A stretch of DNA of 64,000 bases from a virus (Duplodnaviria; Heunggongvirae; Uroviricota; Caudoviricetes). Shown here one piece after another: positions 1,000 through 19,573 of the stretch (its first letter is position 1; each line of letters opens with the position of its first letter). The position numbers and the translations under genes are program-made. Where the stretch lies: IMG/VR virus record IMGVR_UViG_3300022660_000042; one strand, given 5' to 3'. Under the pieces are notes generated by a model. That model was given only the letters and a program-made list of their open reading frames with translations. It did no database searches and had not been told where the DNA came from.

Positions 1000-1072
1000 T
1001 TCGTTTTTCCTTTCTATTATATATAAAAATTTTTTTCCTGTTTTCGCAAAATAAACAGCGAGCAGTAACTTG

Positions 1073-1146
1073 TGGAAATAAGAGTTGGACTCGAACCAAC
1101 GATCTTTGCATTGCTGCAACGCTCTAACCAACTGAGCTATCTCATT
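1073..1146 (-). tRNA. Atypical tRNA (Cys-like GCA, T73, encoded CCA) with a 4-6 nt anticodon loop
   Basis: Good acceptor, D and T arms; anticodon arm TTGCA-GCAA-TGCAA. Confidence 0.6.
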
Positions 1147-1193
1147 GATTATAGGAACCGCTTGTGCTGTTCTATTGTGTTTTAACGTTGTTA

Positions 1194-1222
1194 AATATAG
1201 TAAAGTTTTTTCCTTTTGTAAA
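1194..1222 (-). promoter_or_regulatory. sigma70-like promoter TTTACA-N17-TATATT
   Basis: Consensus repeated throughout the window. Confidence 0.75.
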
Positions 1223-1258
1223 CCCTATTTTTAAAAAATTTTTTAAGTTCTGTATTTC

Positions 1259-1576
1259 CTAAAGTTTATTTAATGCTATTTCAGTATCAAGTCCCATTAC
1301 ACGAAGCCTAATCTTGGCCGGATCTTTCAACTTCAGGATGTCTTCGATTATATCCAAACTTTTTGCTATGAAAATTGGCATACACCAGATTTGAGACTTC
1401 GATTTATAATCTTCATACAGAATTAACTGCCAGATAACGTTATCAGATGCCAATCCCGTTGCATAAATCCCATCGTTAATGTTTTTCGGATATAAGTATA
1501 AATCTCCAGACTCATTAATGATTCTCTGGAGAACTTCCATCTTGGCGAACGCACGTTTTACATTGTTTTTTGTCAT
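1259..1576 (-). CDS. hypothetical protein
   Basis: ORF track, tightly packed minus-strand run. Confidence 0.7.
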   Translation of the reverse strand: MTKNNVKRAFAKMEVLQRIINESGDLYLYPKNINDGIYATGLASDNVIWQLILYEDYKSKSQIWCMPIFIAKSLDIIEDILKLKDPAKIRLRVMGLDTEIALNKL

Positions 1577-1884
1577 AGCACCTTGTCCAGCATAATTTCC
1601 AGTTTCATATTTTCATATTTGGCCTTGAGACGGTCAAACGTTTTGCACTTGTGAATTTCTGGAATTAACTTTAACAATAAGTTCTTTTCTTCACTGTATT
1701 TAATTACCAAATCATTTCCAAGTTCATATTTATTGGTTACATCTTGAAACCGGATATAATCAGAGTAAACATGCATTTCAATATTATTAAACTTACGGAA
1801 TGTAGCATAGTTATGACGATAGTCAAGGGCAAAATTTTCCTTGGCCAATAACTTATCTACTTTTTCTTGAAAACGTGATAACAT
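1573..1884 (-). CDS. hypothetical protein
   Basis: ORF track; follows promoter at 1892-1920. Confidence 0.7.
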   Translation of the reverse strand: MLSRFQEKVDKLLAKENFALDYRHNYATFRKFNNIEMHVYSDYIRFQDVTNKYELGNDLVIKYSEEKNLLLKLIPEIHKCKTFDRLKAKYENMKLEIMLDKVL

Positions 1885-1891
1885 ATTTTAT

Positions 1892-1924
1892 AAAATAGAA
1901 AAAAGGTTGACTTTCGTCAACCCT
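1892..1924 (-). terminator. Terminator hairpin overlapping a promoter (TTGACG in the stem)
   Basis: GGTTGAC-GAAA-GTCAACC-T6; -35 to -10 spacing 17. Confidence 0.75.
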
Positions 1925-1946
1925 TTAATATTTCCAGGAATTAAAT

Positions 1947-2171
1947 TTAGATTTTCTCATTTTCTTTTTTAAGTGCATTTCCGAGTTTTTCGATGTCATT
2001 GACAAATAGCTGAACAATTTCATCTACAGTTCCAAGTGGAACCATGCCATTATCAGATTTCAACTTGAATAGCTTATCTTTCAGCTCATCTGACACAAAT
2101 TCGGTCCAGACGTGTTTTGGAAAATTTCCAATATTTTCTTCATTAGTTATATCTTCCAATACTTTGTTCAT
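1947..2171 (-). CDS. hypothetical protein
   Basis: ORF track. Confidence 0.65.
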   Translation of the reverse strand: MNKVLEDITNEENIGNFPKHVWTEFVSDELKDKLFKLKSDNGMVPLGTVDEIVQLFVNDIEKLGNALKKENEKI

Positions 2172-2422
2172 TATTTAATCTCTTTTACTTGAACCGTGGC
2201 ATCTATTTCACCAAGAAATAACTCATTCATTGATGCACTATAATATGACTTACTTTTTACACAGTAAGACATCTTACTCTTTGCTGAGCGTAAATCAGCA
2301 AAATGTGTAGCTTGGCTTAAATCAGTTACCCAACTAACATAACCCTTTTTAGAACCCCAATAATAGACTATACCATCAACAGTTCTACAAAGAATCCATG
2401 TTTTTAATTTCGCATTGAACAT
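2171..2422 (-). CDS. hypothetical protein
   Basis: ORF track. Confidence 0.65.
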   Translation of the reverse strand: MFNAKLKTWILCRTVDGIVYYWGSKKGYVSWVTDLSQATHFADLRSAKSKMSYCVKSKSYYSASMNELFLGEIDATVQVKEIK

Positions 2423-2425
2423 TAC

Positions 2426-2884
2426 TTACCATCCATTGGAATGCTTTATTTGCTCATAACGGTCCACAACAGCACTCGTCACTGCTCTTTGTGTACGTTC
2501 ATTTATACCGGATAGAGTCTTCGGTTCGACAATACTGTATTCTCTTGTAGTGTCATTATACCTAAGATTGAGACCCTTGAAAGTCAGGAACCAAGTATCG
2601 TTCGTAACCTCAACGTCGGCCATAGCAACAAGATCCGGGTCGTTAGAGGCCTCACAGAAGTCGAGACGTAAAACCTTGACCTTAATCTGGTCACTCATAG
2701 TTGCCTCCAACTTAGCCTTTGCTTTCTCGCCTTCCAGAGACGTACTGGTCCAGCCACCTTTGTCGTTCAAGTACATGACATTGACACCGGCTGTTGTACT
2801 GTTTGCAATACATGCTTCAAGGTCCTTGTCACCGATATATTCTTTTAACTCTGTGAGTTCATCAATTATTTTACTTATTTTCAT
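2426..2884 (-). CDS. Protein with a possible C-terminal SpoVG-like domain
   Basis: LVAMADVEV..LTFKGLNL..IVEP..INERTQRAVTSAVVDRY resembles the SpoVG pattern. Confidence 0.4.
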   Translation of the reverse strand: MKISKIIDELTELKEYIGDKDLEACIANSTTAGVNVMYLNDKGGWTSTSLEGEKAKAKLEATMSDQIKVKVLRLDFCEASNDPDLVAMADVEVTNDTWFLTFKGLNLRYNDTTREYSIVEPKTLSGINERTQRAVTSAVVDRYEQIKHSNGW

Positions 2885-3183
2885 AATGTATCTCCTTTAG
2901 AAGTTTCAACCATTTGTGCTCGCTTTATGCCAAGAAGCTCTCTATACATCTGAAGCTGGTTCAACTTAAGATTTCTGTTAATACAATCAGAAGAAAGGAC
3001 ATATTCTAGGTCCTTGATTTCATTCTCAAGCCAATGAATTTTCATTTCTTCTGTCTTCAATCTATTTGCATTCATGTCTAGGGTTTCTGTATCAGATTTC
3101 CCTTTTGTTAATTCATTCAAGTATATTTTTTTCATCATGTTATTTATCCTTATTATTGAAAATTCGTCATCATTAACCACCAA
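2881..3183 (-). CDS. hypothetical protein
   Basis: ORF track. Confidence 0.6.
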   Translation of the reverse strand: MVVNDDEFSIIRINNMMKKIYLNELTKGKSDTETLDMNANRLKTEEMKIHWLENEIKDLEYVLSSDCINRNLKLNQLQMYRELLGIKRAQMVETSKGDTL

Positions 3184-3457
3184 GCATCAAACATTCCAAC
3201 GACTTTATGCTAGCCTTTTCAGCATCGGTAAGAGGTTCAAAGTCCTCGTTAAAGTACCGCACTGCGTCACGGATTTTATCCTTGATGTTATCCAGTGCTA
3301 CTTTCCGTGGGTCAATCGGACTTGCCGTCTTATAGCTGATGTCAAGTCGGTCTGACCTATCTACAAGAGACAGTTCTGTAATGTCCATGTCGCCGAAGTG
3401 AGACTCCATTGTGGTGAGTTCATCTATGATGTTTTTCTTGAGTTTACTGATTTGCAT
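3173..3457 (-). CDS. hypothetical protein
   Basis: ORF track. Confidence 0.65.
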   Translation of the reverse strand: MQISKLKKNIIDELTTMESHFGDMDITELSLVDRSDRLDISYKTASPIDPRKVALDNIKDKIRDAVRYFNEDFEPLTDAEKASIKSLECLMLGG

Positions 3458-3626
3458 AATGTTTCTCCTTTGGAATTTTTACCCATTTACCTTTATGCTG
3501 GTCTTCCCAAGCATCCTCGCCAGCATCATAATCCTGCCATTTAAGACCTATATCTGCGGCTGCCTCTTTCATTTCTTGGATAAGGCTTTCCTGCTCTTCA
3601 AGTTTGTCGAGCACATCCTTACACAT
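3444..3626 (-). CDS. hypothetical protein
   Basis: ORF track. Confidence 0.55.
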   Translation of the reverse strand: MCKDVLDKLEEQESLIQEMKEAAADIGLKWQDYDAGEDAWEDQHKGKWVKIPKEKHYANQ

Positions 3627-3724
3627 TTCACGAAGGTTAGTTTGAAATGTGAAATATTGCTCATTTTCGCGTTTCTTTATTTCAACACGAAGCCCGCGCT
3701 TGATGTCATATCTATATGCATAAA

Positions 3725-4018
3725 TTAATCCTTTAACGTAAAGTCAATAATTAAACACAAAGGAATAAATGAAAGTAATCCTGATATAATTGAAAGTATT
3801 ATTAAGGTGACACTATTAATTCCACTTCCATCTATTGGATTAATAACTCCGATAAAAGCCAGGAATGCAATTAGCCAATTAAATCCAGTCCATATTGAGC
3901 ATAATATTATTGCAAATACAGCCGTAAATGGATCAGTATGCTCTGGATTACCACCTGCTCTTCTGTGTATCATTCTTCCAGTAACATTCATCTGACCCGG
4001 AACCCATGAACCTATCAT
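3725..4018 (-). CDS. hypothetical membrane protein
   Basis: Two hydrophobic segments. Confidence 0.65.
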   Translation of the reverse strand: MIGSWVPGQMNVTGRMIHRRAGGNPEHTDPFTAVFAIILCSIWTGFNWLIAFLAFIGVINPIDGSGINSVTLIILSIISGLLSFIPLCLIIDFTLKD

Positions 4019-4019
4019 T

Positions 4020-4574
4020 CTACTTTACCTCCCTCAATAATGCTTCAACCCGTTCCTTTACATCAGTCCACTTATTAGATATAGCAAGATAGTCCTTATT
4101 TTTCTCAGTAGCCAAATCGTTATGGTGCTGTAATCTTGCCATAGCACCATAGTAATTTTCAGCATACGTAGCTATTTGTCTGGTTTTCCGTAGATTGTCC
4201 TGTTTCATATTCCGTAACTGTTCATCTTGATACCTTATTACTTGCTTGTACGCTTCAGTATCATGAAAAAGGGAATTAATTATATCATTCTGTTCATCTG
4301 TTTTCGATTTATCTAAATTACTTTGTGCTTCTTTTGTATTCTCCATACAAAAAAGATAAGCAGTTTGTTCATGTATTTTAGCAAGTTTTTCAATACATAT
4401 TTCACGAGGATATTCATGTTCTTGAATATCTAAAGCCACCGCCTGTATTTTTTCAAGCACTTCTCTAAACTCGTCAAATGATAAATTAAGCGATACGTTA
4501 TCAAGCGGTTTCTTCATATAACTCCTTTTATCTGATAGAGCTATCCTTATATACGGATAAACTCTTTTTAACAT
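4020..4574 (-). CDS. hypothetical protein
   Basis: ORF track; promoter directly upstream. Confidence 0.7.
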   Translation of the reverse strand: MLKRVYPYIRIALSDKRSYMKKPLDNVSLNLSFDEFREVLEKIQAVALDIQEHEYPREICIEKLAKIHEQTAYLFCMENTKEAQSNLDKSKTDEQNDIINSLFHDTEAYKQVIRYQDEQLRNMKQDNLRKTRQIATYAENYYGAMARLQHHNDLATEKNKDYLAISNKWTDVKERVEALLREVK

Positions 4575-4675
4575 AATAATATAGCAAAAGGATTGACTTC
4601 TGTCAACCCTTTAATATTATTTTCTGAAAATTAAACTGACTCAAATAAAAAATCAGTAACCAACTCATATTTTTC

Positions 4676-5284
4676 TTAATTTTTCTCAGAACGATCACGA
4701 ATAGCGACAAAGAGGTCGTCACAGTCTTTTTGGAACTGGTCTAAATCAGTCGGAACGACTTTGCGGTTGAGCCATTCTTCCTTCGACTTAATGCCGTCGA
4801 TATTGAAGAAAGTGTCTTCTTTTAGAGTCTTGGCGATGATTCGAGAGTGTGTGATGACGAGGAGGCCATAAGACTTTTTGAGTACTTCATCCTTAACAGA
4901 GTTGATGTAGTTAGCAACTGCGAGCTGGAGCTCTTCTCCCATGCCGAGCTCTACTTCATCGAGAACAATGAAGCGTTCTTCATGGTTAATAATCGACTTG
5001 AGCAAATGGACAGTGTTGTCTCCCGTAGAAGTCCATTCAGAGTCACGAAGGAAGTTGATTCCTATTGTGCTGCTGAGTCCAGCACGTGACATGAAGGACA
5101 GAGAGCTGACCAGACGTTCTGGGCTGTCTTTTCCGAGCTTCTTTTGAATTCGTGTCGGAAGAATCTTACGAATTACAGACTTTCCAGCGCCATTCGACCC
5201 AGTGAGAATGGTAAGTTTTCCAAGTTCGATTGAGTCAGCAATCTCAATCAGTCGGTCAATGTGCTTATTCCATTCTTTTTTCAT
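4676..5284 (-). CDS. ABC/AAA-type P-loop ATPase
   Basis: Walker A GSNGAGKS, Walker B FIVLDEVE; start moved to MKKEW (the track start overlaps tRNAs). Confidence 0.8.
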   Translation of the reverse strand: MKKEWNKHIDRLIEIADSIELGKLTILTGSNGAGKSVIRKILPTRIQKKLGKDSPERLVSSLSFMSRAGLSSTIGINFLRDSEWTSTGDNTVHLLKSIINHEERFIVLDEVELGMGEELQLAVANYINSVKDEVLKKSYGLLVITHSRIIAKTLKEDTFFNIDGIKSKEEWLNRKVVPTDLDQFQKDCDDLFVAIRDRSEKN

Positions 5285-5348
5285 TGTTATTTTTCCTTTT
5301 TCTTTAAATATAAAAAAAGGATTGACTTTCGTCAACCCTTTAATATAG

Positions 5349-5423
5349 TGGAGGCGATTGGAATTGAACCAATCAAGAGAGGAACATTCTGTGCAAAAGT
5401 TGCGGAAAGTAACCTTTGCCCCC
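5349..5423 (-). ncRNA. tRNA-Ala/tmRNA-like acceptor-T minihelix carrying the repeated structured module
   Basis: GGGGGC/GCCTCC with G3:U70 and A73, T arm ATTGG-TTCAATT-CCAAT; no D or anticodon arm. Confidence 0.7.
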
Positions 5424-5428
5424 ATTAG

Positions 5429-5502
5429 TGGATCCAGTGGTATTCGAAACCACAACCTCCCGCTTGCAGGGCGGGTGCTCTGCCAAATTGAGCTATGAAC
5501 CC
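5429..5502 (-). tRNA. tRNA-Ala(TGC)
   Basis: Cloverleaf, G3:U70. Confidence 0.9.
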
Positions 5503-5509
5503 ATGTTAG

Positions 5510-5582
5510 TAGCGGCGTCGGGAATCGAACCCGAATGCCAGGATTGAAGGTCCCGTGAACTAAGCCGTTATTCTACGTCGCC
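5510..5582 (-). tRNA. tRNA-Glu(TTC)
   Basis: Cloverleaf, loop CC-TTC-AA. Confidence 0.85.
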
Positions 5583-5592
5583 ATAATTTTAG

Positions 5593-5665
5593 TAGTCCTA
5601 TACAGATTCGAACTGTAGTAACTTGGCTGAGAACCAAGTGGCCTTGACCGCTAGCCGATAGAACC
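5593..5665 (-). tRNA. tRNA-Glu(CTC)
   Basis: Cloverleaf, loop TT-CTC-AG. Confidence 0.85.
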
Positions 5666-5672
5666 ATATTAG

Positions 5673-5747
5673 TGCCACCGACAGGGGTCGAACCTGTGAC
5701 GCGAAGATCTTCGGTCTTCCGCTCTACCAAAACTGAGCTACAGTGGC
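5673..5747 (-). tRNA. tRNA-Phe(GAA)
   Basis: Cloverleaf. Confidence 0.9.
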
Positions 5748-5759
5748 ATATATTTTTTA

Positions 5760-5834
5760 TGGACCGTAGGAGGCTCGAACTCCTGACCCCCAGAATGCAA
5801 ATCTGGTGCTCTACCAAAACTGAGCTAACAGCCC
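5760..5834 (-). tRNA. tRNA-Ala(TGC)
   Basis: Cloverleaf, G3:U70. Confidence 0.9.
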
Positions 5835-5884
5835 GAAAATAAAACTGACCTTACTCATCTCAACGCGTACTATTGACTTTCGGT

Positions 5885-5957
5885 AAGCGCATACGGGATT
5901 CGAACCCGTGACCAGCGGCCTTCACACCGCCTGTTCTACCGCCGAACAAAATGCGTT
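5885..5957 (-). tRNA. Degenerate tRNA (His GTG or Phe GAA ambiguous)
   Basis: Good T and D arms; anticodon arm GCGG-TGTGAAGG-CCGC is irregular. Confidence 0.5.
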
Positions 5958-5968
5958 ATCAGTTTTAG

Positions 5969-6042
5969 TGGACACATATGGGATTCGAACCCATGACGTT
6001 TTCCCTGCCAGGGAAACATTCTACCAACTGAATTAATGGCCC
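5969..6042 (-). tRNA. tRNA-Ala(GGC)
   Basis: G3:U70; 1-nt bulge in acceptor; near duplicate of 6137..6210. Confidence 0.85.
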
Positions 6043-6053
6043 ATGATTTTTAG

Positions 6054-6127
6054 TAGCGCTGTCGGGACTCGAACCCGAATTTCCGACTTGAAAGGCCGGT
6101 GAACTGAACCAGTTATTCGACAGCGCC
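6054..6127 (-). tRNA. tRNA-Glu(TTC)
   Basis: Cloverleaf. Confidence 0.9.
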
Positions 6128-6136
6128 GAAATTTAG

Positions 6137-6210
6137 TGGACACATATGGGATTCGAACCCATGACGTTCTGCGTGCAAAGCAGACATTCTACCAACTGAA
6201 TTAATGGCCC
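6137..6210 (-). tRNA. tRNA-Ala(TGC)
   Basis: G3:U70; same body as 5969..6042 with a different anticodon arm. Confidence 0.85.
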
Positions 6211-6219
6211 AAATGTTAG

Positions 6220-6292
6220 TACTCCGTCCCGGATTCGAACCGGGGTTATCCGATAGAAAGTCGGATGGCTTAAACCGCTGGCCGAACGGAGC
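6220..6292 (-). tRNA. tRNA-Glu(TTC)
   Basis: Cloverleaf. Confidence 0.9.
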
Positions 6293-6303
6293 ATATTTTG
6301 TAG

Positions 6304-6377
6304 TGCCAAGTTCCGGAGTCGAACCGGATTTCTGGGATTTTCAGTCCCGTCCATTCCCACGATTGGATGCCATGGCA
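6304..6377 (-). tRNA. tRNA-Phe(GAA), atypical D arm
   Basis: Loop CT-GAA-AA; mismatches in acceptor. Confidence 0.7.
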
Positions 6378-6411
6378 TAAAAGAAAAGTTCCTGTGCTTG
6401 TGCACAGGAAC
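6378..6411 (-). terminator. Attenuator terminator 2
   Basis: GTTCCTGTGC-ACAA-GCACAGGAAC + TTTTCTTTT. Confidence 0.9.
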
Positions 6412-6436
6412 CGTTTTTAAAACTCTAATCGGTTAA

Positions 6437-6550
6437 CTACCTGATCCTATGCACTGTATTTGAATCAAATGCTTCAAACGCTGCAGCTGCAAATTCAGCT
6501 GCGGCACGTTCTGCTGCAAAAAATTCATGTTCAAATACGTTCATAGTCAT
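6437..6550 (-). CDS. Putative attenuator leader peptide MTMNVFEHEFFAAERAAAEFAAAAFEAFDSNTVHRIR
   Basis: 10 Ala, 6 Phe, 5 Glu; precedes the Ala/Glu/Phe tRNA cluster; GTGCATAGGATC (6443-6454) is complementary to the terminator 5' arm. Confidence 0.9.
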   Translation of the reverse strand: MTMNVFEHEFFAAERAAAEFAAAAFEAFDSNTVHRIR

Positions 6551-6682
6551 TTTGTTACCTTTTGTTATTATATATAAAAATTTTTTTCCTGTTTTTGCAA
6601 AAGTTTGATTCGGCCAATGGACTCCATCCAAAGTTTTACGTCAGCTCTGCACCGAATCATCTGATGCATCAGTTATGTGTTA

Positions 6683-6711
6683 AATATAGTAAAAAGTTGT
6701 TGGTTTGTAAA
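6683..6711 (-). promoter_or_regulatory. Promoter TTTACA-N17-TATATT (repeated at 6926-6954 and 7169-7197)
   Basis: Three near-identical copies in a tandem unit. Confidence 0.75.
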
Positions 6712-6734
6712 CCCCTTTTTAAAATATTTTTTCG

Positions 6735-6846
6735 TGGGGAAGGCAGGATTCGAACCTACGACACACGCCTTGGAATGGAAATAGGAACGTTATATGCATT
6801 TCTACGAAACGTAAATACCGTTGCTCTACCACTGAGCTACTTCCCC
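6735..6846 (-). tRNA. tRNA-like gene with a 40-nt structured insertion; spliced form would read ACGCC-ATTCCAA-GGCGT (TCC)
   Basis: Perfect acceptor, D and T arms; the insert contains the repeated module. Confidence 0.7.
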
Positions 6847-6851
6847 GAGTG

Positions 6852-6918
6852 GTTAACGCGAAATGTATGAACTCATCTAAAAAATAATGCTTTTGATAGG
6901 AACATTCTTTGCGTTAAC
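6852..6918 (-). ncRNA. Structured module copy in a 5' leader
   Basis: GTTAAC-GC-AAA-GAATGT-TCCTAT...ACATTT-C-GC-GTTAAC. Confidence 0.65.
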
Positions 6919-6976
6919 GATGTTAAATATAGTAAAAAGTTGTTGGTTTGTCAACCCCTTTTTAAAATATTTTTAG

Positions 6977-7091
6977 CCGGCGAGACTGGATTCGAACCAA
7001 TAACCCAAAGTACCCTTTAGATAGGAAGCATTGGTGCTGAAAGCGAATACTAAATCTTAAACTTTTGCTCTACCGATTGAGCTACTCGCCG
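6977..7091 (-). tRNA. tRNA-like gene with a 49-nt anticodon loop containing the module; anticodon unresolved
   Basis: CGGCGAG/CTCGCCG acceptor, AAAGT/ACTTT anticodon stem. Confidence 0.7.
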
Positions 7092-7095
7092 AGAT

Positions 7096-7161
7096 GTTAA
7101 CGCGAAATGTATAAACTGATCGAAAATAATGTTTTTTGATAGGAACATTCTTTGCGTTAAC
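7096..7161 (-). ncRNA. Structured module copy in a 5' leader (direct repeat of 6852..6918)
   Basis: Same arms, diverged loop. Confidence 0.65.
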
Positions 7162-11552: not shown

Positions 11553-11560
11553 TTTATCCC

Positions 11561-13771: not shown

Positions 13772-14124
13772 ACCTGAAATTTTTTCCATGCACTAGGGTT
13801 TTGTTCGATTCTCGCGATAAGGTGACAAATAAATTCAGCCACTTCGTTATCGTGAGATGCCGGATAATTCAATATAACTGTTTTATCCGGATTCAACAGA
13901 TGGATAAGCATATTGATAGCTTCCTTATCGGATATTGTCGGCCAAAGATGCTTATCATTATCATGCAGACTTTTGAATTTTGCCATGTATTCCTTGGCGA
14001 GAGCTTTGTTCTTTTTTCGCATAGTCCACCAGTCAAGGAACCAAAAACCCAAACCAAGTCCGAGACAGAAACAAATTCCGATTACCACGACTCTGAGTAA
14101 AAACTCTACAGAAAGTAACAACAT
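13768..14124 (-). CDS. hypothetical membrane-anchored protein
   Basis: N-terminal TM segment. Confidence 0.6.
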   Translation of the reverse strand: MLLLSVEFLLRVVVIGICFCLGLGLGFWFLDWWTMRKKNKALAKEYMAKFKSLHDNDKHLWPTISDKEAINMLIHLLNPDKTVILNYPASHDNEVAEFICHLIARIEQNPSAWKKFQV

Positions 14125-14330
14125 TATTGGTTATCCTTATCTGCGTTCTTTTGCATTTCAACTTGGCTCTGGAACTGCGGGGACTTAGAAAGCATTTCTG
14201 CTTGCTTTGCAAGTTCGAGAAGATTTCCCATAAGAATATTCGAAATAATCTTTTCTTCAGCAGAGTCTGTATTATTATGAAGCAATTCAAGGCGTCGAGC
14301 CGTAGCTTTCAATTCATCGATAGCAATCAT
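14124..14330 (-). CDS. hypothetical protein
   Basis: ORF track. Confidence 0.6.
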   Translation of the reverse strand: MIAIDELKATARRLELLHNNTDSAEEKIISNILMGNLLELAKQAEMLSKSPQFQSQVEMQKNADKDNQ

Positions 14331-14332
14331 TT

Positions 14333-14881
14333 TTATCCTAACAAGTTAAGTTTTTCAATCAGTGCAAGGCGAGCTTTTTCACGGATTTCCTGAAGTTGTA
14401 TTTCGTCAAGAATTTTCGGATTTTCATTCTTTTCGCTGATAGTCATACGTTCCATAGAACAGATATGCTTTCCGTTTTCAGAAACGTCGATAGCCGTATA
14501 GCCGGACTGTTTCGGCATATTCAAACGGATATTACAGTCAATAGATACTTCAATTTCGTACTTTACTGCGTCATCCTGATGATAGACATTCTTTACTTCC
14601 CTGATTTTTACAAGTCTGTAACCAGTATCACCTTCATAAGAATAACGGTCAGAGCCGTGGAGCTTTACCCACTTTCCTTCGTACTTATCCTTATACTTCT
14701 GGATAACCTTTTCGTAATATTCTTTGTTTTCGAGTTCTTTGAGCTTGGCGTTGCACTGGTCAAGCAAGGCACGAATCTGCTTAGCGTTCATACCGCTGAC
14801 GTCGATGACTTTGAGATCAGTATTAATCTTATGCTTCATAGCGAGGACTTTGGTGTCCGTTGTTTTAATCTTATTCTTCAT
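14333..14881 (-). CDS. hypothetical protein
   Basis: ORF track; promoter 14888-14916. Confidence 0.7.
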   Translation of the reverse strand: MKNKIKTTDTKVLAMKHKINTDLKVIDVSGMNAKQIRALLDQCNAKLKELENKEYYEKVIQKYKDKYEGKWVKLHGSDRYSYEGDTGYRLVKIREVKNVYHQDDAVKYEIEVSIDCNIRLNMPKQSGYTAIDVSENGKHICSMERMTISEKNENPKILDEIQLQEIREKARLALIEKLNLLG

Positions 14882-14930
14882 GCGCTAAATATAATAAAAA
14901 ATACCCGTTTTGTAAACGGGTATTTTTTCG

Positions 14931-15043
14931 TCGGAGAGGCACGGCTCGAACGTGCGACCTGCGGGTTATAAGCCATTAATAGGAACAACCTGTGCCATGA
15001 GCGGGTAGTAAAGTACGCTGCTCTACCACTGAGCTACTCTCCA
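14931..15043 (-). tRNA. tRNA with a 41-nt structured insertion; spliced form GCGGG-CTTATAA-CCCGC = tRNA-Ile(TAT)
   Basis: Canonical acceptor, D and T arms; insert lies between nt 29 and 30. Confidence 0.75.
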
Positions 15044-15057
15044 AAAGTAAACTTAAA

Positions 15058-15240
15058 AGTGTCCGATACGATTCACATATCTTTATCACGAACTACGACA
15101 CGAAGCCCGGAGCGAACACGTTACAACTATTACGCTCATAGCCGGCCGCATTAACGCATCGGCGACGCCACACGCTCATATATAGTCATTTGCGCAAAAC
15201 TATATACTTTTACGGTTGAAGACTCCGTATCGGCATGGAT
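15058..15240 (-). ncRNA. Candidate structured ncRNA
   Basis: Terminal stem CCGATACG/CGTATCGG with internal hairpins; no ORF. Confidence 0.45.
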
Positions 15241-15251
15241 TCTTTTAAAAG

Positions 15252-15409
15252 TTGGCGGGAAGTAAAACCAATAAGAACAATGCATGTTAAAATAGGAACT
15301 TCCTGTGCCTAAAATCAAAGGGGCGCGACTCTAATGGCTCCAGCCCGAAATGAAACCCGTTTAGCTAATCCAGATTTCAAATGATGTTCGCCAAACATCT
15401 TCTCGCCAA
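15252..15409 (-). ncRNA. Structured RNA ending in a module copy (15254-15309), with an alternative terminal stem
   Basis: GGC-ACA-GGAAGT-TCCTAT...ACTTCC-C-GCC; upstream TTGGCGAGAAG can pair with CTTCCCGCCAA. Confidence 0.6.
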
Positions 15410-15414
15410 TTTTA

Positions 15415-15490
15415 TAGCGGGAGTTGGATTCGAACCAACGACCTTTGGATTATGAGCCCAACGAGCTAAACCGGACTGCTCTATCCCGCG
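15415..15490 (-). tRNA. tRNA-fMet(CAT)
   Basis: CGCGGGA acceptor, C1 unpaired, loop CT-CAT-AA. Confidence 0.85.
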
Positions 15491-15648
15491 TCAAAACTAA
15501 AAATATGGTAAGTGGCCGACACTGTTCAAGACACGCATTCAATTCCTCGTGCACTAGGCAGAACTCTGGAATTTACTTAATGTCAGCCTTAAGGCACACT
15601 TACCGTACCTACAGTCTTTTCTTTTAAGTAGAAAGAAAATATATGTAA

Positions 15649-15768
15649 AAATAAACTCAGTTGCTTTAAAGTAGAAGAACATGAAATAACTCGGCTGCTT
15701 TGAAGTAGAAGAGCTTTGAAATAACTCAGTTCTTTGAAGTAGAAGAACCTGAAATAACTCAGTTTTTT
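15649..15768. repeat. Tandem repeat, 33-35 bp unit, about 3.5 copies
   Basis: AAATAACTCAGTT(G)CTTTGAAGTAGAAGA repeated head to tail. Confidence 0.85.
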
Positions 15769-15789
15769 ATGGAAACTTTGAAAAACCGT

Positions 15790-16112
15790 TTTCAAACACA
15801 CTGCCGGAATCCCGATTCTCCACCGGCCATGACGTCTATCAACTGCACATTCTATCGGTCGACTTCTTATAGGGTACAAACTCCGTCATCTAGCATTTTA
15901 TTGATCGTCTAGCTATATCAAACTCACAAAATACTCTTCATGCCACGCTGCTACATGAATTCAGCGCTCACTAAACGTAGTATACATCGATTTCTCTATA
16001 CAAGAGGTTTAGCTCAACGCGTTGTCAGGCCAGGGCACTTACGCATTCCCGAGTGTTATCCCAGCTCTTCAGTCTTAATGATGGTGCGTCCGTCAAAAAG
16101 CACACGCGCTTA
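15790..16112 (-). ncRNA. Candidate large ncRNA
   Basis: GC-richer, no credible ORF, own TATATAAT promoter at about 16117-16130. Confidence 0.45.
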
Positions 16113-16139
16113 AGTATATTATATATAAAAAATTTCGTA

Positions 16140-16460
16140 TGCTTACAGGCGTCCTAATTGCAAGGACCGATTAAGGAGCACAACAGGTGGTTAACCCAGA
16201 GTTTCTCTCCGCTCACTCTTATTTCAAGTGGCCTCACGTGGCATATTTTAGTAGAGCCAATACTACACCTCTGCGACCATCATTCTGGTATTCATCTAGT
16301 TCGCAGAGACAGATTCCTCATCCCAGAGTTTTCCCCATCTGGGTTAGCCCGTTAGCATGAAATCAAGAATGATGCAACACGGGTTCTACTCACATACGAA
16401 ATTCATCTCTCTCCAAAAATTTCAATCTTCCGAGACACTCGGTGGTAGTCTCAATCATTT
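16140..16460 (-). ncRNA. Candidate large ncRNA
   Basis: Several hairpins (CCCAGA/TCTGGG, CTCTGCGA/TCGCAGAG, AACCCG/CGGGCT); promoter at about 16471-16499. Confidence 0.45.
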
Positions 16461-16532
16461 ACGTTATATAATATAGTAAATGTTTTTGCGTTTGTCAACC
16501 CCTTTTTATAAAAAATTTTTATTTATCCGGGC

Positions 16533-16710
16533 TTATTTTTCAATATCAATAATTTGTTGTGCAGCAATTTCAGGTTCTATACCAGCATTATAGCAAGAAT
16601 CAATTTCTTTTTCATAACTTTCTGCATAAACATCATAATCAATCGATGTGCAATAGCCAAATCCTATACAGATTAAACCTTTAACTTTTTCAAAGTATAC
16701 ATCTCTATCC
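16533..16710 (-). CDS. hypothetical protein
   Basis: Likely start MDRDVYF within the track ORF. Confidence 0.5.
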
Positions 16711-16737
16711 ATTATTATATTCCGGGGGGTTTTATTT

Positions 16738-16956
16738 TTACCAATGTTTATACGGTTCTTCGTCAAATCTTGGTCGTCCATTAGATACTTCAATCCCATG
16801 TTCATCCAAGAGCTTCAAAAGATGCTTGGCAAAGCGTAACTGCGAATTCATAAAGGCATAATCTGCATTTGCCCTATGCTCACGAGTATACTTTTCCATC
16901 TGGGAAATAAACGTAGGATCCAATTCTTCGTAATAATCAATTTTCTTCGTAGCCAT
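16738..16956 (-). CDS. hypothetical protein
   Basis: ORF track. Confidence 0.65.
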   Translation of the reverse strand: MATKKIDYYEELDPTFISQMEKYTREHRANADYAFMNSQLRFAKHLLKLLDEHGIEVSNGRPRFDEEPYKHW

Positions 16957-16959
16957 AAT

Positions 16960-17361
16960 TTATTCCTTCGGCAAAGAATTTACCCACTGGTTAAAAGCGG
17001 CATAAGCCTGAGAATCTGCAAATACCTGCAAACTGTGCTTGAATTCATCACTATGCTTAACCGGAATATCTTCATTGAGCGTAGCGAGCGGCTTAACACG
17101 TTTACAATCAAGATTCTTGTTCAAACCGATTTCAATAGTCTTCTGACCCAAAAGCTTCGCAATTTCCATATTGGCACTATTATCAAAATCAAAAATAATA
17201 CGAGTACCGGAATAGTGACCGCTGTCGATTCGCATTCCGTCAAACAAACCGTTTAAACCGAGACCACAATTACGACGTGTTCCGAAATTGGGTACTTGCT
17301 GACGGTAATATTCCATAACATCTTCAGATGTGATATGTTCTACTTGTTCGATTCGTACCAT
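16960..17361 (-). CDS. hypothetical protein
   Basis: ORF track. Confidence 0.7.
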   Translation of the reverse strand: MVRIEQVEHITSEDVMEYYRQQVPNFGTRRNCGLGLNGLFDGMRIDSGHYSGTRIIFDFDNSANMEIAKLLGQKTIEIGLNKNLDCKRVKPLATLNEDIPVKHSDEFKHSLQVFADSQAYAAFNQWVNSLPKE

Positions 17362-17429
17362 ATTGTTATTCCTTTTTGTTTATATGCATAATATAGAAAA
17401 AGGGCTGACTTTCGTCAACCCTTTTTATC

Positions 17430-17505
17430 TCTCCCCTCCTGGATTCGAACCAGGGTTATTTCTGCTTGTAGGGCAGACGCCATTAACCTGCTAGGCGAAG
17501 GAGAG
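17430..17505 (-). tRNA. tRNA-Val(TAC)
   Basis: Cloverleaf, loop CC-TAC-AA. Confidence 0.8.
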
Positions 17506-17509
17506 TTAA

Positions 17510-17568
17510 GGCGGGCAGTAGTTTTGCGATAATCCTAATTCATCTGTTAAATAGGAACTGCCGTTGCC
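17510..17568 (-). ncRNA. Structured module copy just 5' of tRNA-Val
   Basis: GGC-AAC-GGCAGT-TCCTAT...ACTGCC-C-GCC. Confidence 0.7.
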
Positions 17569-17781
17569 TAAAATCTTTTTGACTATATCTTCATAGTCTC
17601 TTAATTGGCAGCCACTCTCGGACATTCAGGTGACCCATCAAGATCTTCAATTATCAGTCCTGATTTCTTACGCTTAGAGTAAGAACTCTACTATTTGGTG
17701 CCTTCCGACATATAGCGTAAATCAACATAACGTATATAGCTATATGAAACTCGTTTCCTAGCGATCTTGCTAAACTTTTAG

Positions 17782-17854
17782 TAGCGGGGGTCGGACTCGA
17801 ACCGACGACTTCAAGGTTATGAGCCTTGCTTGCTAGCCACTGCATCACCCCGCG
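17782..17854 (-). tRNA. tRNA-Met(CAT), fMet-like acceptor
   Basis: CGCGGGG acceptor, loop CT-CAT-AA. Confidence 0.85.
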
Positions 17855-17997
17855 TCAATAAAACTCGAATGTACTGTTACTGGAGGTCTCTGATTATACC
17901 AGCTCTTCCCGCAGCTGACATCCCGTTGCTGCACCCGGCTTAGCATTATAAAGAGTCTGCAGCTTCTAAATAACGCCTAACAGTATATTATTTATAG

Positions 17998-18070
17998 CGC
18001 TGGAAGAGAGAATCGAACTCCCAACTGCCTGATTACAAATCAGGTCTTCTACCTATTGAAGTATTCCAGC
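17998..18070 (-). tRNA. tRNA-Thr(TGT)
   Basis: Cloverleaf. Confidence 0.9.
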
Positions 18071-18374
18071 AAAAGGTGTAATTGTGCTTGTCAAGCTTGG
18101 TTCGATCTAGTTATCTGCAAGTAATCCCAATCGGGTGCTTTACATTAACCTGCAACCATCATGTCCCTTCGCTCCAATTACAAGAGCGTTACGTTATTAA
18201 AGCTTACGCCACGGGTAACGAACCCCCTGCACTCATATTTATGGATTGCTCCACGCGTTGTGTTGGAACCCACGCTTCCGTTTTGACACCAGTGGAATAT
18301 TCCTGGGGTTTTACTTTCGGTTAAAGCAAGTAAGTAACTTTGAGGATCACAATGCAATCGACCCACAGGTTGTA

Positions 18375-18450
18375 TCGGCGTACCTGGATTCGAACCAGGG
18401 AAACCTCTTGATCCCAAATCAAGCGCTCTACCAGACTGAGCTACACACCG
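18375..18450 (-). tRNA. tRNA-Pro(TGG)
   Basis: C1-G72, A73. Confidence 0.9.
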
Positions 18451-18502
18451 CAAGTTTTTAAGGTGGTTCCACCACCAGCTGACTACAGCTATAACGTTTT
18501 AG

Positions 18503-18575
18503 CTGTCCTTCCTGGACTCAAACCAGGGACCAAGTGATTAACAGTCACCGACTCTACCTACTGAGCTAAAGGACA
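18503..18575 (-). tRNA. tRNA-Asn(GTT)
   Basis: Cloverleaf, G73. Confidence 0.9.
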
Positions 18576-18657
18576 ATGTTTTAATCATTCATTTACGTCG
18601 TATAATATAGTAAATTATGCTCCGTTTGTAAACCCCTTTAATTAAAAAAATTTTTAA

Positions 18658-19383
18658 TCAACTGAGTTTTTCTTTAATACTTTCCCAAGTTAAATTGTTT
18701 TTATCCAATATGATTATTCGTATTCCATTCTGTTGTTGTACAATCGCAATCTTTTCAACATCAGTAATACCAAATTTTTTAGTTTTATTATTTATTAAAT
18801 AATCATTTTTTGGATCTAGATATACATCATATTCAGGAAGGTAAAAATCAGGATAATAACGATGTTTTATACCTTTAGTATCTTCCCAAATAAAATATGT
18901 AGGTCTTTCCCATTTTACTTGGTTTTCATCAAGCGTTTTTGCTACCTCAAATTCATATGTAGAATCAAGACTTGTTCCTTTATATTCTATAGTTTTTGAA
19001 GTATGCCAACCACCTAAATGACGTTCAAATGCAATTTCTCTCAGTTTTTGTTTATGCTCTTCAGATTGCGGATGACTAAAAATTCGTTTTCCTTCATCAG
19101 TTCCTTTATAACGCTCTGAAAATGTTTCACCTTGTTTCCTTACGCGTTCATCACTATCTTTAGTTAATCCTTTATTCCAAGCATAACTACCCGGAGCTAA
19201 TTTTCTTTTACCATTTTCATCTATAATATATTTTTGACTAGTTTTAATAGTATTTAAATCACATTCCTTTTTATGTTCATTTAAAAGACGTCTAGTCCTA
19301 AATATATTTTGACAAAATGGGCAAATCCAATTATTATATGCATTTGCTTGTTCTCTAACAACTTTATATCTACAATTTTTCAT
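18658..19383 (-). CDS. Putative homing endonuclease (Zn finger + NUMOD-like + PD-(D/E)xK domain)
   Basis: CPFC..H, WNKGLTK, DSTYEFEVAKTLD..RYYPDFYLPEYDVYLDPK; TATAAATA at 19388-19395. Confidence 0.75.
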   Translation of the reverse strand: MKNCRYKVVREQANAYNNWICPFCQNIFRTRRLLNEHKKECDLNTIKTSQKYIIDENGKRKLAPGSYAWNKGLTKDSDERVRKQGETFSERYKGTDEGKRIFSHPQSEEHKQKLREIAFERHLGGWHTSKTIEYKGTSLDSTYEFEVAKTLDENQVKWERPTYFIWEDTKGIKHRYYPDFYLPEYDVYLDPKNDYLINNKTKKFGITDVEKIAIVQQQNGIRIIILDKNNLTWESIKEKLS

Positions 19384-19425
19384 ATTGTATTTATATGAGT
19401 TGGTAGAGCAGTTGTTTATTTTTTA

Positions 19426-19496
19426 CGCTTCCACCTGGACTCGAACCAAGAAATCCGGACTACTAAACCGGCATTTTACCATTGAATTATAGAAGC
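19426..19496 (-). tRNA. tRNA-Thr(AGT)
   Basis: Loop TT-AGT-AG; A34. Confidence 0.75.
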
Positions 19497-19505
19497 TAAA
19501 AATTT

Positions 19506-19573
19506 GGCGGGCCGTAAAACCTTTTGATTACCAATCAACTGCTCATCTGAGCTAAATAGGAACGACCTATGCC
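19506..19573 (-). ncRNA. T-armless tRNA-Thr(GGT)-like RNA closed by the structured module
   Basis: GGC-ATA-GGTCGT-TCCTAT-T-TAGCTCAGATGAGC-A-GTTGA-TTGGTAA-TCAAA...ACGGCC-C-GCC. Confidence 0.65.

What the first reader, a model, noticed from the sequence alone, without database searches (positions are those of the whole stretch)
1050..19573. System: an unnamed covarying RNA module in 10 copies and two circular permutations, tied to tRNA genes
Seen on the minus strand: 5'-GC-ANN-(N4GT)-TCCT(AT) pairs with 5'-(TT)-(AC N4)-C-GC, giving a 6-bp helix with a 3x1 internal loop. The helix covaries: AGCGGT/ACTGCT (1058-1167), GAATGT/ACTTTC (5349-5423), TAACGT/ACGTTT (6735-6846), GAATGT/ACATTT (6852 and 7096), AATGCT/AGTATT (6977), GGTTGT/ACTACC (14931), GGAAGT/ACTTCC (15254), GGCAGT/ACTGCC (17510) and GGTCGT/ACGGCC (19506). 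In four copies the GC/GC end is looped and the TCCT end is open; in six it is the reverse. Unpaired ANN, C and TCCT stay conserved while the stems vary, which is the signature of a functional RNA fold. I cannot match it to hammerhead, twister, pistol, HDV/theta, BHB or K-turn patterns. Inference: a new self-cleaving ribozyme, a nuclease/splicing signal, or a protein-binding site.
Basis: partly seen in the sequence, partly recalled or inferred. Interest (0 to 1): 0.93.

Follow-up and report, generated by a model that had tools for sequence, protein, structure and literature searches.

The report
Hairpin RNA tag on phage tRNAs
A small conserved RNA hairpin, found in this giant gut phage inside tRNA genes and around tRNA-like pieces, also occurs in many other phages and several bacterial phyla, almost always beside one uncharacterised ~600-residue protein and often beside the RNA ligase RtcB, which points to an undescribed RNA-protein system that acts on tRNAs.

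Summary
Ten copies lie on the minus strand, four hairpin-closed ("looped") and six with the halves apart ("open"). The 411-kb phage genome holds 13.

The module is helix H1 (3-9 bp), an ANN/C internal loop, a covarying 6-bp helix H2, then fixed unpaired UCCUAU and UU. It matches no Rfam family.

Looped copies interrupt the anticodon arm of tRNA genes. Deleting about 40 nt restores a perfect anticodon stem-loop. Open copies enclose tRNA-like pieces or short loops.

New here:
- The module occurs in dozens of viral contigs and in bacterial chromosomes (Chryseobacterium, Tenacibaculum, Kapaibacterium, gammaproteobacteria).
- It sits directly upstream of a ~600-aa protein with no Pfam family (helical domain plus TerD-like sandwich), often next to RtcB.
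- The protein was found in 5 of 5 near-complete module-bearing phages. All 6 protein-positive genomes among 151 Flavobacteriales carry the RNA adjacent.

Best reading: the module is this protein's RNA partner, like Ro60 with Y RNA. Excision of the tRNA inserts is plausible but not shown. No nuclease was identified and no spliced RNA contig was seen.

The scan earlier noted a similar module with different fixed words in another phage.

The parts
1058..1167 (-). Open module copy. The X half (GC-ACA-AGCGGT-UCCUAU) and Y half (UU-ACUGCU-C-GC) bracket a tRNA-like RNA.
   Evidence: Read. X half found. H2 pairs 6/6 including one G.U.
1073..1146 (-). Payload of the first copy: a tRNA-like RNA whose 'anticodon' stem is capped by a GCAA tetraloop. 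It has an encoded CCA 6 nt before Y-H2.
   Evidence: ARAGORN reports a 2-nt 'anticodon'. Rfam tRNA 56.6 bits. The same architecture, with compensating stem changes and GCAA/GAAA loops, occurs in other phages (L035, L060, L084, L103, L120).
5378..5412 (-). Looped module copy (H2 ACUUUC/GAAUGU with a U.U mismatch; UCCUCU tail).
   Evidence: CM R1 45.4 bits. The same copy type is conserved in L060, L066, L084, L103, L120, L124.
5349..5423 (-). Host RNA of that copy. It has an acceptor stem (G3.U70, alanine-like) and a T arm only. The module sits where the D and anticodon arms would be.
   Evidence: Read. Orthologues (rows 3, 18, 21, 26, 32, 35).
6781..6814 (-). Looped module copy inside a tRNA gene.
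   Evidence: CM R1 47.5 bits.
6735..6846 (-). tRNA gene with a 40-nt insert between positions 29 and 30. After removal it reads ACGCC-AUUCCAA-GGCGU (Gly-UCC).
   Evidence: Rfam tRNA 52.1 bits over 112 nt. One best junction, a=6, b=8, stem 5/5, U33 and R37 present (L006:1844).
6858..6912 (-). Open module copy in the leader of that tRNA, just after a promoter-like site. H1 extends by 6 bp into the flanks (8 bp with the GC/GC pairs).
7021..7053 (-). Looped module copy with a compensated GU-to-CU/AG change at the conserved end of H2.
   Evidence: CM R1 41.6 bits.
6977..7091 (-). tRNA gene with an insert of about 42 nt in the anticodon loop. After removal it reads AAAGU-UUAGGGU-ACUUU (probably Pro-AGG). 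The junction is ambiguous by 1-3 nt.
   Evidence: Rfam tRNA 53.3 bits over 115 nt. (L006:1605).
7102..7155 (-). Open module copy in the leader of the 6977-7091 tRNA. H1 extends by 7 bp into the flanks.
14979..15011 (-). Looped module copy inside a tRNA gene.
   Evidence: CM R1 47.1 bits.
14931..15043 (-). tRNA gene with a 41-nt insert between positions 29 and 30. After removal it reads GCGGG-CUUAUAA-CCCGC (Ile-UAU).
   Evidence: Rfam tRNA 40.7 bits. ARAGORN in intron mode gives tat, i(31,41). One best junction, a=6, b=10.
15255..15308 (-). Open module copy with a 28-nt payload, inside a highly expressed non-coding stretch.
17511..17567 (-). Open module copy with a 31-nt payload, ending 6 nt before tRNA-Val.
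19507..19572 (-). Open module copy whose payload is a D arm plus an anticodon arm (loop UUGGUAA). It ends 9 nt before tRNA-Thr.
   Evidence: The same payload type with anticodons GGU, GCU or GUU occurs in L035, L038, L066, L084, L100.
23697..24887 (-). Phage RtcB RNA ligase (396 aa), about 4 kb from the tRNA and module cluster.
   Evidence: Pfam PF01139, 195.6 bits. Genome search.

Best explanation
The module is a real folded RNA element on the minus-strand transcripts. I read it as the recognition site of an uncharacterised protein of about 600-650 residues, here called P600. P600 has a novel all-helical N-terminal domain, a TerD-type beta-sandwich and a small C-terminal domain. In this phage its gene lies outside the window, at genome 68015-69940.

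Together, and often with the ligase RtcB, they form a 'scaffold protein plus tRNA-like non-coding RNA' system. It is of the same kind as Ro60 with Y RNA and Band-7 with b7a-tRNA, but built from unrelated parts.

The two topologies are two ways of attaching the same protein handle:
- Open copies are Y-RNA-like. The 5' and 3' ends pair to make the handle, and the loop carries cargo: a whole tRNA mimic, a D arm plus anticodon arm, an anticodon hairpin, or a short loop. One open copy always sits in the leader of the P600 gene itself, which suggests autoregulation.
- Looped copies put the handle, as a hairpin, into the anticodon arm of a tRNA or tRNA-like RNA.

What is shown and what is inferred:
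- Shown: the fold, its covariation, its spread, and its tight linkage to P600.
- Inferred: that P600 binds the module.
- Inferred, and less certain: that in true phage tRNAs the hairpin is later cut out and the exons are sealed by RtcB, and that the biological theme is protection, repair or control of tRNAs during phage-host conflict.
For: Fold and specificity:
- 13 copies in the genome, all on one strand.
- Covariation in H2 and H1 across 41 distinct copies.
- The covariance model R1 finds only 1-2 sites per 3-8 Mb bacterial genome, all at the locus.

Linkage to P600:
- The phage P600 gene has an open module in its leader (genome 67937).
- P600 is present in 10 of 14 module-bearing viral records and in 5 of 5 that are at least 90% complete.
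- Module copies lie 20-400 nt upstream of the gene in 9 of 10 loci, with a degenerate one in the tenth.
- In 151 Flavobacteriales genomes the RNA is in 7 and P600 in 6. All 6 have the RNA directly upstream. My own hypergeometric estimate gives about 5e-10.
- Three distant family members (29-30% identity) each carry an open module before the start codon.
- No other neighbouring gene is conserved.

RNA-repair context:
- Bacterial order is RtcB, then a tRNA-like gene with a looped module, then open modules, then P600.
- RlaP and an R2K ATP-grasp lie nearby in Chryseobacterium.
- The phage has RtcB at 23697-24887.

P600 looks like a scaffold:
- The model is confident (pLDDT 87.6, pTM 0.85).
- It has a TerD fold (3ibz, probability 1.0).
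- The helical N-domain has no solved relative.
- No nuclease fold was recognised.
Against: - Binding is inferred from gene linkage only. No structure or biochemistry supports it.
- P600 shows no similarity to TROVE/Ro60 or to any known RNA-binding fold.
- A pure scaffold model does not explain why at least 15 phage tRNA genes keep perfect, canonical anticodon arms that exist only once the insert is removed. That looks like splicing, for which this model names no enzyme.
- RtcB is found in only 3 of 14 module-bearing phage records, and two complete ones lack it.
Confidence: 0.6

Rival explanations
1. The module is mainly an RNA cutting-and-joining signal, a bacterial and phage counterpart of the archaeal bulge-helix-bulge motif. 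Both strands are cut at the UCCUAU/UU end of H2. In looped copies the hairpin is the intron, and the tRNA exons are joined by phage or host RtcB. In open copies the payload is released, or circularised, and the flanks are joined. P600 would be the endonuclease or its targeting subunit. This overlaps with the best explanation, since binding is still needed.
For: - Removing the insert gives a 5/5 anticodon stem plus a canonical 7-nt loop in the phage tRNAs. Seven junctions are single best solutions.
- Inserts sit at 29/30, 31/32 or 33/34, as archaeal non-canonical introns do.
- The insert is kept in orthologues whose anticodon differs: UCC, UUC, CUC, AUC.
- In the copy at 1058-1167 the same approximate distances (6 nt and 10 nt) fall exactly after CCA and before acceptor nucleotide 1.
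- In the 5349-5423 RNA they would leave a clean 12-bp alanine-type minihelix.
- RtcB, the splicing ligase of archaea and animals, is encoded nearby.
Against: - No EndA-type endonuclease is present, and no nuclease fold was recognised in P600.
- Distances from H2 to the junctions vary (5-6 nt, up to 9; and 7-13 nt), so there is no simple ruler.
- The Chryseobacterium tRNA-like RNAs give non-canonical loops with position 33 as G or A.
- Four gut metatranscriptome runs, laid as contigs, show an unspliced contig over 6727-7236 and no joint across any insert. This is weak evidence, because tRNAs are poorly captured.
- RtcB is missing from complete module-bearing phages.
Confidence: 0.3
2. The module is a new self-cleaving ribozyme. 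It cuts beside H2 without protein, and RtcB then seals the 2',3'-cyclic phosphate and 5'-OH ends.
For: - About 14 nucleotides are invariant and unpaired or helix-closing.
- Circular permutation is typical of small ribozymes.
- RtcB would fit the end chemistry.
Against: - The conserved core is a single hairpin with a 3x1 internal loop and two tails. Two cuts would be needed for intron removal.
- Open copies with unstructured 15-20 nt payloads have no further helix.
- There is no match to any Rfam ribozyme.
- The strict linkage to one protein is better explained by protein recognition.
Confidence: 0.05
3. The module is a DNA-level feature: the ends of a small mobile element, or a recombination site that targets tRNA genes. 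The interrupted tRNA genes would then be dead.
For: - Short repeated nucleotides (A, U, AU) occur at some insert junctions.
- tRNA genes are common targets of mobile DNA.
Against: - Helix sequences differ between copies while pairing is kept, and G.U pairs occur on one strand only.
- Inserts are retained in orthologous tRNAs of diverged phages, with compensatory changes and variable linker lengths.
- No insert-free version of two of the window's interrupted tRNAs was found in IMG/VR.
- No transposase or recombinase is linked to the module.
Confidence: 0.03
4. The open copies are merely terminator, attenuator or 5'-stabiliser hairpins of tRNA operons. The resemblance to the tRNA inserts would have no shared function.
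For: - Several open copies follow promoters directly.
- In distant genomes the open copy has a long GC-rich H1 followed by a U run, just before the P600 start codon.
Against: - The same invariant unpaired nucleotides (A of ANN, bulged C, UCCU) are kept in both topologies and in all taxa. A plain terminator does not need them.
- Many phage open copies lack a U run.
Confidence: 0.05

Closest known systems
Ro60 (Rsr) with Y RNAs (YrlA/YrlB), often in rsr-yrl-rtcBA operons (PMC4201824; bioRxiv 10.1101/312249)
   Same: - One scaffold protein gene lies next to one or several small RNAs that share a protein-binding stem and carry a tRNA-like domain.
- It is frequently adjacent to RtcB.
- It occurs in both bacteria and phages.
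- Open copies have the Y RNA layout: paired 5' and 3' ends with a variable loop.
   Different: - There is no TROVE domain in the genome.
- P600 has a different fold, helical plus TerD rather than a HEAT ring plus vWA.
- The binding motif is different. YrlA has GNCGAAN0-1G, whereas this module has ANN/C plus UCCUAU.
- Rfam YrlA scores 19.5 bits against a cut-off of 69.
- The hairpin-in-anticodon-arm topology inside true tRNA genes is not known for Y RNAs.
Band-7 protein with b7a-tRNA next to RtcB (Burroughs and Aravind 2016, as described in bioRxiv 10.1101/312249)
   Same: A predicted tRNA-like RNA is encoded beside RtcB and a putative scaffold protein in RNA-repair loci.
   Different: - The partner protein is not a Band-7 protein. 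The phage does have a Band-7 gene, but it lies about 8 kb from P600 and is not linked to modules.
- I could not read the original paper, so I do not know whether b7a-tRNA carries a comparable hairpin.
Archaeal bulge-helix-bulge (BHB) motif cut by EndA and sealed by RtcB (PMC4090602)
   Same: - It is a short structural signal found both as a cis insert at canonical and non-canonical tRNA positions and as paired leader and trailer around RNAs.
- It is independent of connectivity.
- RtcB is the ligase.
   Different: - The geometry differs: a 6-bp helix with a 3x1 internal loop on one side, and long single-stranded tails on the side where the junctions lie.
- There is no EndA.
- The host is bacterial, since the window carries a tmRNA.
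- Cleavage is not shown.
Module 'variable helix flanked by UACUUCUA and AAUU' in another phage's tRNA cluster
   Same: A conserved small folded element occurs both between tRNA genes and as intron-like inserts of about 38 nt in tRNA genes of an uncultured phage. It has no Rfam match.
   Different: - The fixed words are different.
- Those notes report no link to a partner protein.
- I did not test whether the two modules are related.

Membership tests
Archaeal/eukaryal BHB tRNA introns | Two 3-nt bulges on opposite strands separated by a 4-bp helix, with the splice sites inside the bulges | tested here: not met
   The helix is 6 bp. One side has a 3x1 internal loop. The inferred junctions lie 5-9 nt and 7-13 nt out in single-stranded tails.
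Archaeal/eukaryal BHB tRNA introns | An EndA/TSEN-family splicing endonuclease is available | tested here: not met
   PF01974 has no match in the 411-kb phage genome, while the control found it in 4 archaea. The host genome is unknown.
Archaeal/eukaryal BHB tRNA introns | Removing the intron yields a functional cloverleaf tRNA | tested here: met
   One search gives 5/5 anticodon stems with U33 and R37 for the three window tRNAs and at least 12 from other phages. RNA-level splicing itself was not shown.
Y RNA / YrlA (Rfam RF02553) | Score at or above the Rfam gathering threshold | tested here: not met
   19.5 bits against 69 on the Chryseobacterium locus. No YrlA hit in the window.
Y RNA / YrlA (Rfam RF02553) | Adjacent Ro60/TROVE protein and the GNCGAAN0-1G Rsr-binding motif (PMC4201824) | tested here: not met
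   PF05731 has no match in the genome. The motif is absent from the module consensus.
Known self-cleaving ribozyme classes (hammerhead, twister, twister-sister, pistol, hatchet, HDV-like, hairpin) | Match to the class covariance model | tested here: not met
   None in the window at gathering thresholds. None at E up to 5 on a bacterial locus with both topologies.
Group I tRNA introns of bacteria and phages | Intron of more than 200 nt with the P1-P9 core, matching the Rfam Intron_gpI model | tested here: not met
   The inserts are 40-44 nt and there is no Rfam hit.
Kink-turn | A 3-nt bulge followed by tandem sheared G.A pairs | tested here: not met
   The pairs next to the ANN loop are Watson-Crick or G.U (CG 13, UA 13, AU 3 ...) and there is no conserved GA/AG.
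RNA-repair 'scaffold plus cognate tRNA-like ncRNA' systems (Ro60-Y RNA, Band-7-b7a-tRNA) | A conserved protein gene next to a tRNA-like RNA gene, recurrently beside an RNA ligase | tested here: met
   RtcB adjacency is frequent but not universal.
RNA-repair 'scaffold plus cognate tRNA-like ncRNA' systems (Ro60-Y RNA, Band-7-b7a-tRNA) | Physical binding of the protein to the RNA | not testable with these tools
   Needs EMSA, RIP or a structure.

The most novel reading that the evidence does not exclude
Bacteria and their phages possess a protein-dependent tRNA splicing and RNA-excision system that is not group I. The hairpin module marks about 40-nt introns in the anticodon arm, and also marks excisable tRNA-fragment cassettes. 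P600 recognises it and directs or performs the cuts, and RtcB seals the exons. This would be an independent bacterial invention of the BHB/EndA/RtcB logic so far thought to be confined to archaea and eukaryotes.
Probability: 0.3. Interest if true: 0.92.

Novelty: new variant of a known kind. Interest (0 to 1): 0.8.

Why it matters
The finding pairs an RNA motif absent from Rfam with a large protein family absent from Pfam. That family has about 1,270 clusters at 50% identity, all labelled hypothetical.

Both are placed in the RNA-repair and tRNA-conflict setting, beside RtcB, whose natural substrates in bacteria are still largely unknown.

The system occurs in cultured Chryseobacterium species, so it can be tested directly.

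If the tRNA inserts are spliced, this would be the first protein-dependent tRNA intron system in the bacterial world. It would also explain what phage and bacterial RtcB is for.

If the inserts are not spliced, the finding is a third, structurally unrelated version of the Ro60-Y RNA principle. In that case it shows that phages tag their own tRNAs and tRNA fragments with a protein handle.

Tried and rejected
- **RNA evidence.** Four gut or sheep-gut metatranscriptome runs were laid on window 1000-20000 as Logan contigs. No contig joins across an insert. One 511-nt contig covers 6727-7236 unspliced. Contigs cannot show rare or short tRNA-sized products, so this decides nothing.
- **Brute-force splicing with ARAGORN.** It was far too permissive. 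I replaced it with a strict cloverleaf test.
- **Fixed ruler for the cut sites.** My first guess, 6 nt upstream and 8-11 nt downstream of H2, fails as a strict rule. Single-solution junctions have 5-6 and 7-10 nt, ambiguous ones range up to 9 and 13, and the Chryseobacterium RNAs do not fit.
- **H3 helix between the two linkers.** It is seen in one copy (AGAU/AUCU at 6977-7091) and not in the others.
- **RtcB as an obligatory partner.** It is found in only 3 of 14 module-bearing viral records.
- **Other protein searches in the genome.** TROVE/Ro60 and EndA are absent. A Band-7 gene is present but not linked.
- **P600 annotation.** There is no Pfam, no meaningful NCBIfam and no PDB sequence match. 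The helical domain alone gave only noise in the PDB (Foldseek E at least 0.27; VIA best Z 5.0) and weak AlphaFold DB matches to a ZorC EH domain and to TerD-family N-termini.
- **Insert-free versions of two interrupted tRNAs.** None found in IMG/VR by exact pattern.
- **Conserved second protein next to P600.** None found.
- **Burroughs and Aravind 2016.** The paper could not be read in the library.
- **Literature searches.** They found no description of short tRNA inserts in phages or of this protein family.

Full report
**Setting.** The window is the minus strand of G000:C1:92026-156025, part of a 411,059-bp IMG/VR virus record estimated 98% complete. It carries 25 ARAGORN tRNA genes, a tmRNA and a cow-rumen-2 RNA. 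It also has sigma-70-like promoters (read), so the host is bacterial. DNA runs that hold the stretch are animal faeces and bovine gut metagenomes.

**The observation.**
- The X half GCA-N6-GTTCCT is exact in nine copies and variant in one. All copies are on the minus strand, and my full-module pattern finds none on the plus strand.
- The whole genome has 13 copies on that strand. Three lie outside the window, at genome 67937, 212956 and 213053.
- The architecture is more regular than described:
  - H1 starts with the G-C and C-G pairs. It extends to 3-4 bp closed by a 3-4 nt loop in looped copies, or to 3-9 bp made with the flanks in open copies.
  - An internal loop has 5'-ANN opposite a single C.
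  - H2 is 6 bp and ends in a nearly fixed G-C, U-A.
  - Unpaired UCCUAU follows on the 3' side and UU on the 5' side.
- Three window copies have one U.U mismatch in H2.

**Is it a fold?** Two IMG/VR pattern scans that did not require pairing, followed by a pairing filter, found the module in dozens of viral contigs with many different H2 sequences. Among distinct pattern matches, fully paired N4 cores are several-fold more frequent than after shuffling partners.
- On 41 distinct looped copies (alignment A2) the stated structure has 94% standard pairs against 77% in shuffles. It has 55 double-sided changes against 13, and a covariation score of 0.465 against 0.143 (0/500 shuffles). Slid registers give 29-51% paired.
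- Selection for at least 5/6 H2 pairs biases the H2 figures. The third H1 pair was not selected for, and it covaries (UG, AU, UA, CG).
- G.U pairs put the fold on the transcript of the tRNA strand.
- Invariant positions are the U before H2, the A-U closing pair, the bulged C, the G-C of H1, the A of ANN, and UUCCU.
- No Rfam family matches, either in the window at gathering thresholds or on a bacterial locus at E up to 5. There only tRNA (51.8 bits) and a sub-threshold YrlA hit (19.5 against 69) appear.

**What the looped copies interrupt.** Rfam calls tRNAs of 112, 115 and 113 nt at 6735-6846, 6977-7091 and 14931-15043. A strict cloverleaf test anchored on the acceptor, D and T arms gave these results:
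- Removing about 40 nt restores a 5/5 anticodon stem and a 7-nt loop with U33 and R37. The products are Gly-UCC (junction unique, between 29 and 30), Ile-UAU (unique, 29/30; ARAGORN intron mode agrees), and probably Pro-AGG (in the loop, ambiguous by a few nt).
- The same holds for at least 12 tRNAs of other phages. Seven of all these junctions are single best solutions.
- Orthologues of the Gly tRNA keep the insert while the anticodon changes (UCC, UUC, CUC, AUC).
- The distances from H2 to the junctions are not constant (5-6 and 7-10 nt where the solution is single, wider elsewhere). The linkers vary while the exon ends stay put.
- The fourth looped copy (5378-5412) sits in a 75-nt RNA that has only an acceptor stem, with G3.U70, and a T arm. 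This RNA is conserved in six other phage contigs.

**What the open copies enclose.** Payloads recur across phages:
- A complete tRNA-like RNA whose anticodon stem is capped by a GNRA tetraloop and which carries an encoded CCA (window 1058-1167).
- A D arm plus anticodon arm (19507-19572).
- Anticodon-like hairpins, or an anticodon arm plus T arm (genome 213053 and 212956).
- Unstructured loops of 15-30 nt.
Several open copies directly follow promoters or precede tRNAs by 6-11 nt.

**The partner protein.** A scan of one genome per prokaryotic species, filtered, found the module in about 50 Chryseobacterium species, a Tenacibaculum, a Kapaibacterium, a Thiodiazotropha and another gammaproteobacterium.
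- The gene order there is a tRNA-like gene with a looped module, then one to three open modules, then a 580-620-aa protein without a Pfam family. RtcB lies upstream in Chryseobacterium and downstream in the gammaproteobacterium. In the Thiodiazotropha contig no P600 gene was seen next to the RNA.
- The phage encodes a homologue (642 aa, E 3e-38). It lies exactly downstream of the open module at genome 67937.
- The family is large, with 1,271 clusters at 50% identity. All members are unnamed.
- It is present in 10 of 14 module-bearing viral records and in all 5 that are at least 90% complete. Modules lie just upstream of the gene.
- In a sample of 151 Flavobacteriales genomes, the covariance model R1 hits 7 and the protein profile hits 6. 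All six have the RNA adjacent.
- Three members only 29-30% identical to the phage protein each have an open module in their leader. There the module has a long GC-rich H1 and mostly a U run.
- No second protein is conserved nearby.
- RtcB is in the phage (window 23697-24887) but in only 3 of 14 viral records.

**What the protein looks like.** The AlphaFold model is confident (pLDDT 87.6, pTM 0.85).
- Residues 395-570 form a TerD-type sandwich (3ibz, probability 1.0). The family keeps the acidic D-x-D and S-G-D motifs.
- The N-terminal 345 residues are all-helical with no solved relative. In AlphaFold DB they show only weak likeness to a ZorC EH domain and to TerD-family N-termini.
- No nuclease, TROVE or known RNA-binding fold was recognised.

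**Interpretation.** The strongest statement the data allow is that the module and this protein are a pair. An RNA element placed in the protein's own leader across the whole family is what an RNA-binding protein with autoregulation would show.
- The layout matches the Ro60-Y RNA and Band-7-b7a-tRNA arrangements described for RNA-repair loci (PMC4201824; bioRxiv 10.1101/312249). It has one protein, several small RNAs sharing a handle, tRNA mimicry and frequent RtcB. The parts are unrelated: the genome has no TROVE domain, the binding motif is different, and the Band-7 gene is unlinked.
- Whether the tRNA inserts are excised remains open.
  - For excision: the exon logic, the two topologies that parallel BHB usage, and RtcB.
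  - Against excision: no EndA, no recognised nuclease, variable junction distances, non-canonical loops in Chryseobacterium, and no spliced contigs (weak).
- I put the RNP reading at 0.6, a primary role as a splicing signal at 0.3 (the two overlap), a ribozyme at 0.05, DNA-level explanations at 0.03 and plain terminator or stabiliser hairpins at 0.05.

**Earlier notes of this scan.**
- A first-reader note on this window had already seen inserts at 29/30 in two tRNAs (e1-5385374). This agrees with my result, and I tested it here.
- Another note flagged the 642-aa orphan protein without assigning it a function (e1-1717254). I now link that protein to the module.
- Reports on another phage describe a similar module with different fixed words, UACUUCUA and AAUU (e1-1845411, e1-1845166). 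I did not test whether it is related.

Noticed in passing
window 15056-16500 and 17484-18751 (minus strand): RNA contig depth in gut metatranscriptomes is 10-100 times that of neighbouring genes (up to about 680x). These stretches between tRNA genes are mostly non-coding, which suggests abundant large non-coding RNAs. No Rfam gathering hit.
   Followed up: partly
window 7202-8539 (minus strand): A phage alanyl-tRNA synthetase truncated to the catalytic domain (445 aa; PF01411, 612 bits). It lies about 1.8 kb from the 75-nt acceptor-plus-T-arm RNA with G3.U70 (5349-5423), which is the kind of minihelix such a fragment can charge (own knowledge).
   Followed up: no
window 1073-1146 and 5885-5957: ARAGORN reports two tRNA-like genes with 6-nt 'anticodon loops' (ca, ga). 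The first actually has a GCAA tetraloop. The cluster also has A34 tRNAs (Pro-AGG 19674-19747, Thr-AGU 19426-19496), which are unusual for bacteria.
   Followed up: partly
L035, L038, L066, L100, L124 compared with window 6735-6846: Orthologous insert-bearing tRNAs with nearly the same body carry different anticodons (UCC, UUC, CUC, AUC). This indicates anticodon switching between related phages.
   Followed up: partly
window 12480-13217; L313:7092-7595: An R2K-clade ATP-grasp gene lies in the phage tRNA region. Another lies near the Chryseobacterium RtcB, RNA and P600 locus, together with RlaP.
   Followed up: no
genome G000:C1:59294-59827 (outside the window): A Band-7 domain protein (546-aa frame) lies about 8 kb upstream of the P600 gene. 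Band-7 proteins are the other proposed scaffold of RtcB-linked tRNA-like RNAs.
   Followed up: no
window 2-706 and 19748-20518 (minus strand): Free-standing HNH endonuclease genes lie between tRNA genes.
   Followed up: no
window 22366-22809, 9146-9805, 21615-22415: PTH2-type peptidyl-tRNA hydrolase, NADAR and DUF1848 genes lie around the tRNA clusters.
   Followed up: no
L297 (gammaproteobacterial MAG contig): A HipB/HipA-like kinase toxin pair lies directly upstream of the tRNA-like RNA, P600 and RtcB unit.
   Followed up: no
L313:1488-3289 (Chryseobacterium sp. E1): The P600 gene is broken into pieces in this strain: an in-frame stop, and two profile matches in separate frames of 266 and 309 aa. 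The RNA genes are intact.
   Followed up: partly
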